From Thermoplasmata archaeon (lineage in GTDB: Archaea > Thermoplasmatota > Thermoplasmata > Lutacidiplasmatales > UBA184), in the NCBI GenBank assembly GCA_021798195.1, contig JAJZYH010000001.1, positions 4,351 through 68,350 on the forward strand: a stretch of 64,000 nt of DNA, in the 5' to 3' direction. How positions within the stretch are numbered: position 1 is the first letter of the stretch; the number at the start of each line of letters is the position of its first letter. Made by a program: the position numbers and the translations under genes. Below are positions 4,598 to 29,099 of the stretch, one piece after another. Under the pieces are notes generated by a model. That model was given only the letters and a program-made list of their open reading frames with translations, was not told the origin of the DNA and ran no database searches.

Positions 4598-4682
4598 TGC
4601 AGGGGGAGGGATTTGAACCCACGAACTCCTACGAGACCAGACCCTGAATCTGGCGCCTTTGACCAAGCTAGGCTACCCCTGC
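4598..4682 (-). tRNA. tRNA-Leu (anticodon CAG), long variable arm
   Basis: The reverse complement reads GCAGGGGTAGCCTAGCTTGGTCAAAGGCGCCAGATTCAGGGTCTGGTCTCGTAGGAGTTCGTGGGTTCAAATCCCTCCCCCTGC. The 7-bp acceptor stem pairs, the anticodon loop is TTCAGGG, the T-loop is GGTTCAAATCC, and a 14-nt variable arm gives about 85 nt. There is one T-stem mispair (T-T) in my hand-fold. CCA is not encoded. A TATA-like ataaaag lies about 30 bp upstream (4712-4718). Confidence 0.75.
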
Positions 4683-25665: not shown

Positions 25666-25856
25666 GGGGCATCGGTGACCCCATCCCTTACATGAAAATT
25701 GCGCGACGCGGCATCGTTCCGTTCCCGAAGCTCCTCCACTGTCCCGGGCTCATCACCACCCGGACCCCTAGGGAACGGGGCCTGTCCGGAATCCACGCCC
25801 ACCCCGAGGGAACCCGGAACGCCTCGTCCGGAACTCCCGGAGATCCAGCAGATCCC

Positions 25857-25865
25857 GCCCTATCC
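25857..25865. repeat. Left copy of 9-bp direct repeat gccctatcc (putative target-site duplication or conserved flank)
   Basis: Identical 9-mer immediately outside both inverted repeats of the tnpB element. Confidence 0.55.
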
Positions 25866-27110
25866 GGCTTTGGCACGAAACCTCATCAAATACCCCCGTA
25901 GGTTACCCATCTTGCCGACACATGCGGGCTATTTCCTTCCAACATCAAAGTCCGGACGGGCTGGAACGGACTCTTTCCGACACCCGGTCGATGGTACGCC
26001 ATCTGCTCGCCGTCGCATTGAAGGAGCGAGTCACATCGGCCATCGCCCTTCGGAAGCGGACCAAGGAGTGGTTTCGCACGTCGTGGCGTCACCGATACGC
26101 CGCGTCCTACCACGAGTCGGCCTGTTCGACGGCGATGGGAATCGCCCGCTCCTACCTTCGCCTGAAACGAACCGGGGTCCGGGTCGGAGAACCCCGTGCG
26201 AACCGGCTCCGCATCACCCTCCACCAGAGCCTCTCCCGCATCAAGGACGGGGCACTCCGGGTCACGGTGCGGCCCGGGGTGTACCTCTACTTCCCTCTTG
26301 CCGATGCGGTGAGACACAAACACAAGCGCTGGCCGGAATGGTCGGTTCACAAGCTCGGAGAGGTCACGCTCACCAAACGGTCGGTCGTCCTGCCGTTCCA
26401 AGTGCCCGAGGAACCCAAGCGAACGGCGGAGGCCACCGTCGGCATCGACCTCAACCTTCGGCACGCGGATATGCTTTCGGATGCGATGTCCGAGCGAGTT
26501 CCCTTGGACCGACTGGCAAATGCCCAGTCCCGATTCCAGCGGCTCCGCGAATCCGTGCAACGGAGAATGCCGAAGAACCTCCAACGGCAACGCCGCGTGC
26601 TTCGCCATCATCGAAACCGTCAGCGGAACGTCGTGACCGACATGGTGCGGAAGGACGTCGCTCCGGAAATCGTGAAACTCGCCGGCGGGCGCAATATCGC
26701 TTTCGAGGACCTCTCGAAGATGCCGAGAGGGAATGGGCCGAGCCGAGACCTGAGACGAAAGCTCTCCCGTTGGACCTGCGGGCTCCTCCAACGGGAAGTC
26801 GAACGAAGGAGCCCGGCGCGTATCGTGTACGTGAACCCGAAGGGGACCTCCCAGGAGTGTCCCCGGTGCGGTGGGAAAGTGAGCCACCCTGCGTGGAGAA
26901 AAGCACGATGCGCGAACTGCGGAGACTTCGACCGCGACCGCATGGCGTCGGCAAACATCATGTCGCGCGGTCATCGTCTCCTTTGGGGACAACCGCTTGC
27001 CCCGAGTGCCCGAGCCTCTGCGGCGGAGCTGGCCCGGTGGACTCCCGAAAGGGACTCCGAAGGGCCGACGCGACCGAAGCCGTACGACGGGTAGGTTTTG
27101 TGCCAAAGCG
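25866..27110 (+). mobile_element. IS200/IS605-family (IS1341-like, tnpB-only) insertion sequence, about 1.25 kb
   Basis: A single intact tnpB is flanked by about 17-bp imperfect inverted repeats (ggctttggcacgaaacc at about 25866-25882; ggttttgtgccaaagcg at about 27094-27110; 15/17 match). These are bracketed by an identical 9-bp direct repeat gccctatcc (about 25857-25865 and 27111-27119). The left end has locally lower GC. Coordinates are +/-1-2 nt. Confidence 0.65.
25922..27094 (+). CDS. tnpB: TnpB (IS605 OrfB family RuvC-like RNA-guided endonuclease/transposase accessory protein)
   Basis: RuvC-I TVGIDLNLRH (D); RuvC-II IAFEDLSKMP (E); zinc finger CPRCGG...CANCG; RuvC-III GDFDRDRMASANIM (D). 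390 aa, apparently intact. Confidence 0.9.
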   Translation: MRAISFQHQSPDGLERTLSDTRSMVRHLLAVALKERVTSAIALRKRTKEWFRTSWRHRYAASYHESACSTAMGIARSYLRLKRTGVRVGEPRANRLRITLHQSLSRIKDGALRVTVRPGVYLYFPLADAVRHKHKRWPEWSVHKLGEVTLTKRSVVLPFQVPEEPKRTAEATVGIDLNLRHADMLSDAMSERVPLDRLANAQSRFQRLRESVQRRMPKNLQRQRRVLRHHRNRQRNVVTDMVRKDVAPEIVKLAGGRNIAFEDLSKMPRGNGPSRDLRRKLSRWTCGLLQREVERRSPARIVYVNPKGTSQECPRCGGKVSHPAWRKARCANCGDFDRDRMASANIMSRGHRLLWGQPLAPSARASAAELARWTPERDSEGPTRPKPYDG

Positions 27111-27119
27111 GCCCTATCC
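27111..27119. repeat. Right copy of 9-bp direct repeat gccctatcc; contains the TAG stop codon (minus strand) of the ClC gene
   Basis: Identical 9-mer. ClC ends ...PEDPKG* with the stop at 27114-27116. Confidence 0.55.
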
Positions 27120-29099
27120 CTTGGGGTCCTCAGGGGCCGGAGCCGGCGCCACCGGGGCTCCCGAGCTCCCCGGCGCATCGGGCGGCGACGCGGAGGCAGG
27201 TCTTGCCGAGGCCGTGGGCTTTTCGGATCCGGGGCTCGGTGCCGGCGTGGGGGAGGACCGTGGGGGTCGGGACGGCCGGTGGGCCCACCACCCGCGGAGC
27301 CGGGCGAGTCCGGAGCCCTCCTGGAGGACGAAATCCTCCTCCGCTTTGCGGCGGGTCGCCTCCAGGAGGTCGGTGCGGGAAACGTACCCCAGGAGGGACC
27401 CGTGGGCATCCATCACGAGGAGGTAGGGGACCTTCCGGAGCACCAGGGTCGAATACGCCGCGTAGGCGGTGGCGTCGGGCGGTATGGTGACGAAGTTCGG
27501 GTCCGCGATCTCCCGGATGGGCCGTTCGGGGTGCCCCTGGTCCACCAGCTCCCGGTAGATCCTCTCGCGGTCCACCATCCCCATGACCCTCGACCCGTCG
27601 AGGACGGGGAGGCGCTTCAGGCGGAAGGCGGGGTCCCCGGGACGCTGAAAGCGGCGATAGAGCTCCAGAACCGTCGCATCGGCGCTCACGGTGACGACGC
27701 GGTCGCTCATGATCTCCCGGACGCGCCGCAATCGGAGGGGATTGTACTCGTAGATGTGGCGGATGGCGTAGCCCCGTTCCTTCAAGCGCTCGGTCATGAT
27801 GGTCTCCGGGAGCATGTACTCCGCCAGCAACTCGGCCACGAAGACGGTCACGAAGATGGGGACCACCACGTCGAAGTCCCGGGTGACCTCCAGCGCGAAG
27901 ACGCTGGAGGCCATGGGAGCCCGGGCCGCCGCCCCGAACACCGCCGCCATCGCCGCCACGGCGAAGACCTCCGGCAGGGGAGACCCCGGGGCGAACAGGT
28001 CGAACCCGTAGCCGATCCCGTATCCGAAGGCTCCCCCCACCAGGAAGAGGGGAGCGAGGGTGCCCCCGGAGGTCTGGGAGCCCATGGCGAGGAGCCACGC
28101 GAGGAGCTTCGCCCCGATGAGGAGGAGGACGAGGGTGATGGCCAGCCGGCCCACGAGCACATCGTCGATGACGTTGTAGCCCACGCCCAGGATGTCCGGC
28201 ACGAGGAACCCCAGGATCCCCACGGCGAGCCCGCCCAGGACGGGCAGCCAGGGCTGCCCCATGGGCAGCCGGAGGAACGCCCTCTCCGACGCGTACAGGG
28301 CCCGGGTCACGCCCACCGCGAGCAATCCGCAGGCGATGCCCAACAGGATGAACAGGGGGAGGGCCGCGAGGCTTCCCACCGGATAGGATGGGGTGGGGAA
28401 CAGGGGCTGGGGGCTGATGAGGAGGAAATGCATCCCCGCCCCCACGGCGGATCCCAGGGCGATGGGGATCAGCGATCGCACGCGGAACTCGAACAGGAGG
28501 AGTTCCACCACGAGGAGCACCGCCGAGATGGGCGTCCCGAAGATGGCCGCCATCCCGGCCGCGGCACCGGTGGCCACGAGGATCCGCCTCTCGGAGGGAG
28601 TGACGGTCAGGAGCTGCCCCACGTAGGAGCCGAACGCCCCTCCGGTCTGGATGATGGGGCCCTCCACACCGAAGGGCTGCCCCAGGCCGATGGTGAACAC
28701 GCTGGCGACGGCCTTGAGGATCCCCACCTTGGGCGCGATGCGGCTTTCCCGGGTGACCACCGCCTCCATGGTCTCGGGGATCCCGTGCCCCACGATCTTC
28801 GGGGAACCGTACCGGATGAGGAGGCCCGCCACGAGCCCGCCCAGGGCGGGGATCAGGATCACGTAGAGGCCCAGATGGTTCCCGGCGGGGGAGACGAAGG
28901 CCGCCGAGAGGACCCCGTAGAAGGCGGCGTTGGTGAGGAGGCCGATGGCGTGGTACAGGACGAAGGCGATGAGGCCGGCCAATCCCCCGATGGCGAGGGC
29001 GCTCACCGAGAGACGGGTGATCCGAGGGTCCCCCGTGGTGTAGCCCCGAGGGTGGGGACCCTCTCGCTGGGGAGATCCCGTCACAGGGTGCTCCGGCAC
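27114..29099 (-). CDS. ClC-family chloride channel/transporter with C-terminal tandem CBS domains and a P/S/A-rich tail
   Basis: GSGIP-like GHGIPE; GREGP-like GVEGP; multiple TM helices; CBS pair (VVTVSADATVLEL... and FVTIPPDATAYAA...). The start codon is probably GTG. Confidence 0.9.
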   Translation of the reverse strand: MPEHPVTGSPQREGPHPRGYTTGDPRITRLSVSALAIGGLAGLIAFVLYHAIGLLTNAAFYGVLSAAFVSPAGNHLGLYVILIPALGGLVAGLLIRYGSPKIVGHGIPETMEAVVTRESRIAPKVGILKAVASVFTIGLGQPFGVEGPIIQTGGAFGSYVGQLLTVTPSERRILVATGAAAGMAAIFGTPISAVLLVVELLLFEFRVRSLIPIALGSAVGAGMHFLLISPQPLFPTPSYPVGSLAALPLFILLGIACGLLAVGVTRALYASERAFLRLPMGQPWLPVLGGLAVGILGFLVPDILGVGYNVIDDVLVGRLAITLVLLLIGAKLLAWLLAMGSQTSGGTLAPLFLVGGAFGYGIGYGFDLFAPGSPLPEVFAVAAMAAVFGAAARAPMASSVFALEVTRDFDVVVPIFVTVFVAELLAEYMLPETIMTERLKERGYAIRHIYEYNPLRLRRVREIMSDRVVTVSADATVLELYRRFQRPGDPAFRLKRLPVLDGSRVMGMVDRERIYRELVDQGHPERPIREIADPNFVTIPPDATAYAAYSTLVLRKVPYLLVMDAHGSLLGYVSRTDLLEATRRKAEEDFVLQEGSGLARLRGWWAHRPSRPPRSSPTPAPSPGSEKPTASARPASASPPDAPGSSGAPVAPAPAPEDPKG

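What the first reader, a model, noticed from the sequence alone, without database searches (positions are those of the whole stretch)
25857..27119. tnpB-only insertion element with inverted-repeat ends and a 9-bp flanking direct repeat, inserted exactly at the 3' end of the ClC gene
IS200/IS605-type elements normally lack terminal inverted repeats and do not generate target duplications. Here the single tnpB gene (RuvC motifs and zinc finger intact) is bracketed by about 17-bp imperfect inverted repeats (ggctttggcacgaaacc / ggttttgtgccaaagcg). Outside these lies an identical 9-bp direct repeat, gccctatcc, and the right copy contains the ClC stop codon. Internal direct repeats cgtaggtt/ggtaggtt lie just inside each end. 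Either this is an unusual end architecture for a TnpB element, or it is a TnpB gene carried by a TIR-type element. A putative promoter (tcatcaaatacc) lies inside the left end. By analogy with known OMEGA systems, the omega-RNA scaffold should overlap the tnpB 3' end through the right end, with the guide being the roughly 16 nt following about 27110 (cctatcccttggggtc...).
Basis: partly seen in the sequence, partly recalled or inferred. Interest (0 to 1): 0.55.

Follow-up and report, generated by a model that had tools for sequence, protein, structure and literature searches.

The report
TnpB gene riding a cut-and-paste-type transposon
A 1,245-bp mobile element in an archaeal genome carries only an RNA-guided nuclease gene (tnpB), yet has the inverted-repeat ends and 9-bp target duplications of a classic transposon. 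It is therefore probably a passenger moved by a transposase encoded elsewhere, which is a rare arrangement in prokaryotes but one already reported.

Summary
The element (25866-27110) has 17-bp terminal inverted repeats and an exact 9-bp flanking repeat. Its single intact tnpB gene has the RuvC residues D176/E262/D339 and a CxxC..CxxC zinc finger. The 9-bp repeat is a true target-site duplication: five independent insertions of this family, at unrelated sites, each carry their own 9-bp duplication directly against the same ends. That rules out IS200/IS605 or IS607 mechanics.

The best reading is a non-autonomous TIR/TSD transposon carrying a TnpB-omegaRNA module, mobilised in trans by a DDE-type transposase. 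The ends begin GGCTTTG like IS903, which also makes 9-bp duplications. No partner transposase was found, so that step is inferred.

The last ~190 nt of tnpB plus the right repeat show near-zero synonymous change and a covarying RNA structure. This fits an omegaRNA whose guide starts at 27111, within the duplication and the ClC gene's 3' end.

Inverted-repeat, DDE-associated TnpB elements and solo copies with the same ends were reported in 2023, so this is a new member of a known but rare kind. It sits in a small clade whose named relatives are Thermoplasmata.

The parts
25852..25856 (+). Candidate TAM (ATCCC), the left flank immediately 5' of the target duplication
   Evidence: Inference only. 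The three closely related copies have ATCCC, AACTC and ATTTC at this position, and the L214 copy has TGTCC. Four sites is too small a sample to define a motif.
25857..25865 (.). Left copy of the 9-bp target-site duplication, GCCCTATCC
   Evidence: It directly abuts the left end.
25866..25882 (+). Left terminal inverted repeat, GGCTTTGGCACGAAACC
   Evidence: The same end is found in L001 and L002. L214 and L215 have recognisable variants. In L003 the left end is diverged, keeping only the TTTGGCAC core, while its right end keeps 13 nt.
25885..25893 (+). A/T box ATCAAATAC, a candidate archaeal TATA-like promoter element about 29 nt upstream of the tnpB ATG
   Evidence: The same 9-mer lies at the same distance in L003 (57% aa identity). 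L002 has TTTAAAT there. Function is inferred.
25922..27094 (+). tnpB, 390 aa, an intact RNA-guided-nuclease-type gene
   Evidence: AlphaFold model with pLDDT 85. Full-length Foldseek matches to Cas12f, TnpB and Fanzor2 at E 1e-11 to 3e-13. dN/dS is 0.21 against the 85% relative.
26917..27110 (+). Candidate omegaRNA scaffold, overlapping the last ~60 codons of tnpB and the right inverted repeat
   Evidence: dS is 0.02 here against 0.55 in the rest of the gene. The region is 100% identical to L002 from 26929 onward. The consensus structure has 51 pairs, 88.7% of cells paired against 36-48% in slid controls, and 21 pairs with compensatory changes against 4-11. No Rfam family matches.
27094..27110 (+). 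Right terminal inverted repeat, GGTTTTGTGCCAAAGCG. It overlaps the tnpB stop codon by 1 nt.
27111..27119 (.). Right copy of the 9-bp target-site duplication. It contains the ClC stop codon (cta, 27114-27116).
27111..27130 (+). Predicted guide segment of the omegaRNA (the duplication plus the ClC 3' end, GCCCTATCCCTTGGGGTCCT)
   Evidence: Inferred by analogy with characterised TnpB systems, in which the guide is the flank immediately 3' of the right end. Not tested.

Best explanation
The element at 25866-27110 is a non-autonomous transposon with terminal inverted repeats and target-site duplications. Its only gene is tnpB, together with an omegaRNA.

Proposed steps, each marked as shown or inferred:
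1. A transposase encoded elsewhere binds the two ~17-bp inverted repeats and makes cuts staggered by 9 bp in the target. Repair of those cuts produces the 9-bp duplication. The enzyme is most likely a DDE type, possibly IS5/IS903-like. The duplications are shown; the identity and location of the enzyme are inferred.
2. tnpB is transcribed from a TATA-like box inside the left end (inferred).
3. An omegaRNA is made from the last ~190 nt of tnpB plus the right repeat and reads out into the flank. Its guide is therefore the duplication plus the ClC 3' end. The conserved structure and synonymous constraint are shown; expression and guide length are inferred.
4. TnpB-omegaRNA would cut a restored empty site (left flank, one copy of the duplication, right flank), using the last bases of the left flank as TAM. 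Recombinational repair from a copy that still carries the element would then put it back. This is the homing role established for IS200/IS605 TnpB, inferred here.

The insertion lies 3 nt past the ClC stop codon and leaves the ClC ORF intact.
For: - Five independent insertions each have a different 9-bp duplication abutting the same ends. They are: window GCCCTATCC; L001 GCTTGCCAT, next to an aEF-1alpha gene; L002 and L217-L221 plus L223 GCTTGGGAA (L222 shares only the left junction); L003/L129 GGTTTTGAC; and L214/L215 GGAAAACCT.
- The window and L001 copies are 99.6% identical over 1,245 bp but sit in different flanks, which indicates recent movement.
- The element has no room for a transposase: 1,245 bp, of which tnpB takes 1,173.
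- Several metagenome contigs break inside the element, and one contig (L222) joins the flanks of two different insertion sites. This is what assemblers do with a repeat.
- The protein is a complete TnpB/Cas12f-type fold with an intact catalytic triad, and it is under purifying selection.
- The 3' region shows an RNA signature.
- The terminal GGCTTTG equals the first 7 nt of the IS903 inverted repeat, which I verified on an annotated IS903 copy. That IS903 makes 9-bp duplications is established knowledge.
- Literature: DDE-associated TnpBs all have inverted terminal repeats, and solo TnpBs with the same ends are inferred to be mobilised in trans (PMC10691335). The families named are ISL2, IS630 and IS1031 (PMC13565253).
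Against: - No partner transposase and no autonomous element with these ends was found. I looked in the window, in about 1.4 Mb of fetched loci and in the viral collection.
- No empty site was recovered. Every recovered contig that extends far enough past the AHSA1 gene to show it carries the element.
- The IS903 resemblance is 7 terminal nt plus the duplication length, which is weak.
- The outermost base pair of the repeats is not complementary (G...G), unlike IS903.
- The zero divergence of the 3' ~180 nt between the window and L002 could come from recombination between copies rather than from RNA constraint.
- The consensus RNA structure was derived from the same 8-sequence alignment on which it was scored.
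Confidence: 0.72

Rival explanations
1. The element is autonomous. The TnpB-lineage protein itself, a RuvC/RNase-H-fold nuclease, recognises the inverted repeats and carries out the staggered-cut insertion, alone or with host repair factors.
For: tnpB is the only gene in the element. It is intact and under purifying selection. No partner transposase was found anywhere I could look. The clade is small and divergent, with an N-terminal half that general TnpB models do not cover.
Against: The predicted fold matches RNA-guided nucleases over its full length and shows nothing transposase-specific. TnpB is dispensable for transposition in every family tested, according to literature summarised in PMC3627910. 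Relatives at 30-56% identity show no detectable inverted repeats, so the ends are not a property of the protein lineage. My search for a partner was very incomplete.
Confidence: 0.07
2. The element is mobilised in trans, but by a non-DDE enzyme that also produces duplications. Examples would be a Cas1-type integrase (casposase-like, as in the Asgard aCas1-TnpB loci) or an unknown archaeal integrase.
For: Repeat-flanked aCas1-TnpB loci are reported in archaea (PMC10691335). Inverted repeats plus a duplication do not by themselves identify the enzyme class.
Against: From my own knowledge, casposons make 14-15-bp duplications rather than 9. No cas1 gene lies next to any of the copies examined. 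The end sequence and duplication length match an IS5/IS903-type pattern.
Confidence: 0.1
3. It is an ordinary IS200/IS605 (IS1341-group) or IS607-type tnpB element, and the inverted and direct repeats are coincidental flank sequence.
For: The closest annotated relatives in plasmids and viruses are solitary or IS607-linked tnpB genes. A single 9-mer repeat within 64 kb is not improbable on its own.
Against: Five of five independent insertions show a different 9-bp duplication at exactly the same junctions. The 17-mer repeat is far beyond chance. No tnpA (Y1 or serine) gene is present in or next to the element.
Confidence: 0.02

Closest known systems
DDE-transposase-associated TnpB elements, and solo TnpBs with the same ends (Altae-Tran et al. 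2023, PNAS, PMC10691335; the families are named as ISL2, IS630 and IS1031 in review PMC13565253)
   Same: TnpB lies inside a transposon with symmetrical inverted terminal repeats. The tnpB 3' end is close to the transposon end (here 16 bp; the paper reports under 250 bp). Solo copies are presumed to be moved in trans.
   Different: No DDE gene was found next to any copy here. The duplication is 9 bp, whereas by established knowledge IS630 gives 2 bp (TA) and ISL2/IS1031 give 2-3 bp. The ends resemble IS903 instead. The host clade is Thermoplasmata-type archaea. I could not check whether this protein falls within one of the paper's six DDE branches, because its supplement is not held.
IS903 group of the IS5 family
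   Same: 9-bp target duplication. The inverted repeat begins GGCTTTG (IS903: GGCTTTGTTGAATAAATC, verified).
   Different: Only 9 of 18 repeat positions match. The element has no DDE_Tnp_1 transposase. Its outermost base pair is not complementary. IS903 is bacterial.
IS200/IS605 family, IS1341 group (tnpB-only elements such as IS1341 and ISH-type tnpB copies)
   Same: The single gene is tnpB. A candidate omegaRNA overlaps the gene's 3' end, with the guide in the right flank.
   Different: Those elements lack inverted repeats and duplications and insert 3' of a fixed 4-5-nt target (PMC3627910, PMC13565253). This element has both an inverted repeat and a variable 9-bp duplication.
Fanzor1 in eukaryotic DDE transposons (Mariner/Tc1, hAT, MuDR and others)
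   Same: A TnpB-lineage nuclease rides as a passenger in a TIR/TSD transposon.
   Different: This case is prokaryotic and the protein is small (390 aa). In Fanzor1, the 5' duplication is part of the TAM and the 3' duplication is part of the scaffold (PMC13565253). Here the duplication is long and variable, so it is more likely part of the guide.
MITE-like non-autonomous elements
   Same: Inverted repeats, a duplication and no transposase gene.
   Different: This element is 1.2 kb and carries a functional-looking protein gene and a structured RNA, rather than being non-coding.

Membership tests
TnpB / OMEGA RNA-guided nuclease | RuvC-I D, RuvC-II E and RuvC-III D catalytic triad | tested here: met
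   D176, E262 and D339 are invariant in the 15-sequence alignment.
TnpB / OMEGA RNA-guided nuclease | C4 zinc finger (TNB domain) between RuvC-II and RuvC-III | tested here: met
   C313/C316/C330/C333 are invariant. Pfam PF07282 scores 1.9e-10, above its cut-off.
TnpB / OMEGA RNA-guided nuclease | Full-length WED/REC/RuvC fold | tested here: met
   Model pLDDT 85. Foldseek matches Cas12f, ISDra2 TnpB and Fanzor2 over about 400-450 columns, E 3e-13 to 1e-7. The NCBIfam guided_TnpB score is below its curated cut-off (81.6 against 100) and covers only the C-terminal half, so this is a divergent member.
TnpB / OMEGA RNA-guided nuclease | omegaRNA encoded at the gene's 3' end and right end, with the guide in the flank | tested here: inconclusive
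   Synonymous suppression and a covarying structure support a structured RNA at 26917-27110. There are no expression data and no Rfam match.
TnpB / OMEGA RNA-guided nuclease | RNA-guided, TAM-dependent DNA cleavage | not testable with these tools
   Needs biochemistry.
IS200/IS605 (including the IS1341 group) | No terminal inverted repeats; subterminal hairpins instead | tested here: not met
   A 17-bp terminal inverted repeat is present.
IS200/IS605 (including the IS1341 group) | No target-site duplication; insertion 3' of a fixed 4-5-nt target | tested here: not met
   A variable 9-bp duplication is present at five of five sites.
IS607 | Serine-recombinase tnpA; no inverted repeats or duplications | tested here: not met
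   No second gene is present in the element, and both an inverted repeat and a duplication are present.
DDE-associated TnpB transposons (PMC10691335) | Inverted terminal repeats around tnpB, with the tnpB 3' end near an element end | tested here: met
   The stop codon overlaps the right repeat.
DDE-associated TnpB transposons (PMC10691335) | A DDE transposase inside the same ends, or an autonomous relative with near-identical ends | tested here: inconclusive
   None was found in the window, the fetched loci or the viral collection. The host genomes could not be searched.
IS5 family, IS903 group | 9-bp duplication and inverted repeats starting GGCTTTG | tested here: met
   Only the outer 7 nt are shared.
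IS5 family, IS903 group | DDE_Tnp_1 transposase | tested here: not met
   The element encodes none. tblastn with the IS903 transposase found nothing in any fetched locus. The element cannot be filed as an IS903-group IS; at most it may be mobilised by one.

The most novel reading that the evidence does not exclude
These Thermoplasmata-type archaea contain no transposase that matches the element's ends, and the divergent TnpB itself, or TnpB with its RNA, performs the TIR-dependent, 9-bp-staggered insertion. That would make it a TnpB-lineage protein acting as a true transposase.
Probability: 0.06. Interest if true: 0.9.

Novelty: new member of a known kind. Interest (0 to 1): 0.42.

Why it matters
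In prokaryotes, TnpB is almost always tied to transposons that excise without scars and make no duplication (IS200/IS605, IS607). This family is a clean natural case of the TnpB-omegaRNA module living in a TIR/TSD transposon, the arrangement typical of eukaryotic Fanzor1, and it has well-defined ends at five sites. It makes one question directly testable: how does guide and TAM selection work when every insertion creates a long, variable duplication? The flanks here suggest that the duplication becomes the first 9 nt of the guide and the TAM sits in the left flank. The family also offers a compact 390-aa archaeal nuclease whose scaffold RNA lies almost entirely inside its own gene.

Tried and rejected
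- **Genome-collection scan for the repeat.** The 16-nt pattern was too short for 596 Gb.
- **Viral-collection scans.** The repeat pattern and the protein profile both gave only chance hits or distant relatives.
- **Search for an empty site.** I used the exact AHSA1 neighbour protein and reconstructed empty-site strings. Every recovered ClC-AHSA1 locus with enough flank to show it is occupied.
- **Search for an IS5-like transposase.** tblastn with the IS903 transposase against all fetched DNA found nothing.
- **Inverted repeats around more distant relatives, 30-56% identity.** None were found. One sub-family has asymmetric ends with a conserved 3' tail instead.
- **Methanocaldococcus plasmid relative.** I checked it because I recalled old reports of inverted-repeat tnpB elements in M. 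jannaschii. It is an IS607-type pair and so is not informative. No paper on 'ISAMJ1' is held.
- **Rfam.** No omegaRNA-type family matches.
- **Last contig look-up.** It returned nothing.
- **Internal 'gtaggtt' repeat.** Rejected as a feature, because the full motif is not conserved in the 85% relative.

Full report
**What is in the window**

The region 25857-27119 contains one long ORF, 25922-27094 on the + strand, encoding 390 aa.
- It matches Pfam Cas12f1-like_TNB (1.9e-10) and, weakly, OrfB_IS605.
- It matches NCBIfam 'RNA-guided endonuclease TnpB family' (6.7e-23). That score is below the curated cut-off and covers only residues 154-349.
- In an alignment with 14 relatives, the RuvC residues D176, E262 and D339 and the four zinc-finger cysteines are invariant.
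- An AlphaFold model (mean pLDDT 85) matches Cas12f, ISDra2 TnpB and mimivirus Fanzor2 structures over essentially its whole length (E 3e-13 to 1e-7).

So this is a complete, divergent TnpB and not a DDE transposase.

The gene is bracketed by GGCTTTGGCACGAAACC (25866-25882) and GGTTTTGTGCCAAAGCG (27094-27110), which pair at 16 of 17 positions from 25867/27109 inward. With up to three mismatches, the motif occurs only at these two places in the 64 kb, against 0.06 expected. Immediately outside both ends lies GCCCTATCC (25857-25865 and 27111-27119). The chloride-channel gene (27114-29099, minus strand; Voltage_CLC plus CBS domains) ends with a TAG that sits inside the right copy.

**Is the 9-bp repeat a target duplication?**

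A single 9-mer pair is not improbable by itself, so I looked for other copies. Protein searches found a small family, and I fetched the surrounding DNA.

| Insertion | Identity to window | Flanking context | 9-bp duplication |
|---|---|---|---|
| Window | - | 3' end of ClC gene | GCCCTATCC |
| L001 | 99.6% (DNA) | Upstream of an archaeal EF-1alpha gene; flank GC like the window's | GCTTGCCAT |
| L002, and the same site in L217-L221 and L223 | 85% (protein) | Lower-GC region of small unannotated ORFs | GCTTGGGAA |
| L003/L129 | 57% (protein) | Unrelated site; ends AATTTTGGCAC...GTGCCAAAGCC | GGTTTTGAC |
| L214/L215 | 69-72% (protein), tnpB a pseudogene | Unrelated site; ends GGCTTTGGAAC...GTTCCAAAGCG | GGAAAACCT |

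In all five cases the duplication is 9 bp, differs in sequence, and abuts the element at exactly the same junction positions. Variable 9-bp duplications plus inverted-repeat ends are incompatible with IS200/IS605 mechanics (single-strand, Y1 transposase) and with IS607 mechanics (serine recombinase). Neither of those makes a duplication (PMC3627910, PMC13565253).

**Mobility and spread**

- The ClC-tnpB-AHSA1 arrangement recurs in several MAGs and metagenome assemblies. I found no empty site.
- Several contigs stop a few hundred bases inside the element (L210-L213).
- One contig (L222) joins the left flank of the L002-type site to the right flank of the EF-1alpha site.
- Both behaviours are typical of a repeat that confuses assemblers.
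- The L002-type copy sits in a 52-56% GC stretch of ORFans, a weak DUF932 hit, a weak glycosyltransferase hit and pentapeptide-repeat proteins. This may be a virus, a plasmid or an integrated element, and so a possible vehicle between hosts.
- Named relatives are from Thermoplasmata MAGs.
- An exhaustive search of 1.84 billion cluster representatives gives only 23 relatives at E <= 1e-30 and 130 at E <= 1e-10. The clade is small.

**Who moves it?**

The element is 1,245 bp and tnpB fills 1,173 of them, so it cannot encode a separate transposase. The simplest mechanism for inverted repeats plus a fixed-length duplication is a DDE-type transposase acting in trans.
- The outer seven bases, GGCTTTG, are the same as those of the IS903 inverted repeat. 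I verified that repeat on an annotated IS903 copy (GGCTTTGTTGAATAAATC, perfect 18-bp repeats 1,057 bp apart).
- That IS903 makes 9-bp duplications is textbook knowledge.
- This resemblance is a lead, not proof.
- I did not find a partner. There is no second copy of the repeat in the window, no convincing inverted-repeat pairs elsewhere in it, no IS5-like transposase in any fetched DNA, and nothing in the viral collection.
- My one genome-collection scan was wasted on a pattern too short to be specific.

The trans-mobilisation step is therefore inferred.

**The RNA**

Between the window copy and the 85% relative:
- Codons 1-330 have dS 0.55 and dN/dS 0.21.
- Codons 331-390 have one synonymous difference in about 45 synonymous sites, giving dS 0.02.
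- From 26929 to the end of the element the two are identical.

Eight relatives, at 53-100% protein identity, give a consensus structure of 51 pairs spanning window positions 26917-27091 plus a terminal stem to 27108-27111.
- 88.7% of cells are paired, against 36-48% when partners are slid by 1-3 columns.
- 21 pairs show compensatory changes, against 4-11 in the slid controls.
- 0 of 500 shuffles reach the observed values.

Two caveats apply. The structure was predicted from the same small alignment on which it was scored. The zero divergence could also reflect recombination, since chimeric contigs show that the copies co-occur. No Rfam family matches.

More distant relatives (30-38% identity) instead carry a conserved tail beyond the stop codon, with a covarying hairpin and ...GGTTTCCGGATAAGCAGTTA, and no inverted repeats. 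The TIR-bounded clade therefore looks derived.

**Guide and TAM logic**

If the guide starts right after the right end, its first 9 nt are the duplication. A restored empty site would read left flank, one copy of the duplication, right flank, and the TAM would be the last bases of the left flank.
- These are ATCCC, AACTC and ATTTC for the three close copies, and TGTCC for L214. This hints at A-N-Y-Y-C, or at least Y-Y-C, but from too few sites.
- The alternative layout described for Fanzor1 treats the 5' duplication as the TAM (PMC13565253). It fits poorly here because the last bases of the duplications (TATCC, GCCAT, GGGAA) are unrelated.

**Promoter**

ATCAAATAC lies 29 nt upstream of the ATG in the window and recurs at the same distance in the 57% relative. 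The 85% relative has TTTAAAT there. This is consistent with an archaeal TATA box and a leaderless or short-leader mRNA.

**Comparison with what is known**

- Older literature states that tnpB-only elements lack inverted repeats and duplications (PMC3627910).
- Altae-Tran et al. 2023 describe six TnpB branches associated with DDE transposases, all with inverted terminal repeats. They also describe solo TnpBs with near-identical ends, presumed to be mobilised in trans (PMC10691335).
- A 2026 review names ISL2, IS630 and IS1031 as the DDE families involved, and calls such associations rare in prokaryotes (PMC13565253).

The present element belongs to that kind. It differs in duplication length (9 bp), in its end sequence (IS903-like) and in its host group. 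It also stands out because every copy seen is transposase-less. I could not place it on the published tree.

**Verdict**

The element is a new member of a known but uncommon kind. The unidentified transposase is the main open point.

Noticed in passing
L222 (whole contig, 2,322 bp): This metagenome contig carries the left flank and duplication of the L002-type site (GCTTGGGAA) but the right flank of the EF-1alpha site (GCTTGCCAT...). It is either an assembly chimera across the repeat or a real recombinant between two copies.
   Followed up: partly
L217 1-2700 and 3950-6761; L218 1-1225 and 2471-6454: The 85% relative is inserted in a 52-56% GC stretch of small ORFs with no family hits. The stretch also holds a weak DUF932 hit, a weak glycosyltransferase hit and three tandem pentapeptide-repeat proteins. 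This may be a virus, plasmid or integrated element that carries the transposon between hosts.
   Followed up: partly
L138 1590-1660; L139 1390-1460; L151 7240-7315; L135 7270-7340: Relatives at 30-38% identity share a conserved tail beyond the tnpB stop codon. It has a hairpin whose stem covaries (ctggaactcttggcgcaagccag / ctggtacacgccag / ccggcccttcgccgg), followed by GGTTTCCGG(A/G)TAAGCAGYTA. It looks like the 3' end of a conventional omegaRNA or right end. The start, GGTTT, resembles the start of the right inverted repeat in the window.
   Followed up: no
window 25762-25779 and 27112-27129: An 18-nt inverted repeat (15/18 complementary) links the AHSA1 upstream region and the ClC 3' end. 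In the uninterrupted site the arms would lie about 86 nt apart, so the insertion may have split a hairpin downstream of ClC. It may equally be chance in 70% GC DNA.
   Followed up: no
window 25756-25776 and 25793-25813: A 21-nt direct repeat (81% identical, CCACCCGGACCCCTAGGGAAC / CCACGCCCACCCCGAGGGAAC) is spaced 37 nt apart in the intergenic region upstream of the AHSA1-like gene.
   Followed up: no
L210-L213 (contig ends 375-708 bp upstream of the AHSA1 gene): Several independent assemblies break inside the element rather than at its edge. This is consistent with more than one copy per population.
   Followed up: partly
L214 5001-5957 and L215 4413-5672: At this orthologous site tnpB is broken: truncated in one strain and split in two in the other. 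The stretch corresponding to window 26959-27019 nevertheless stays 88-95% identical to the window copy.
   Followed up: partly
window 4598-4682 (-): A tRNA gene is the only Rfam match in the 64-kb window.
   Followed up: no
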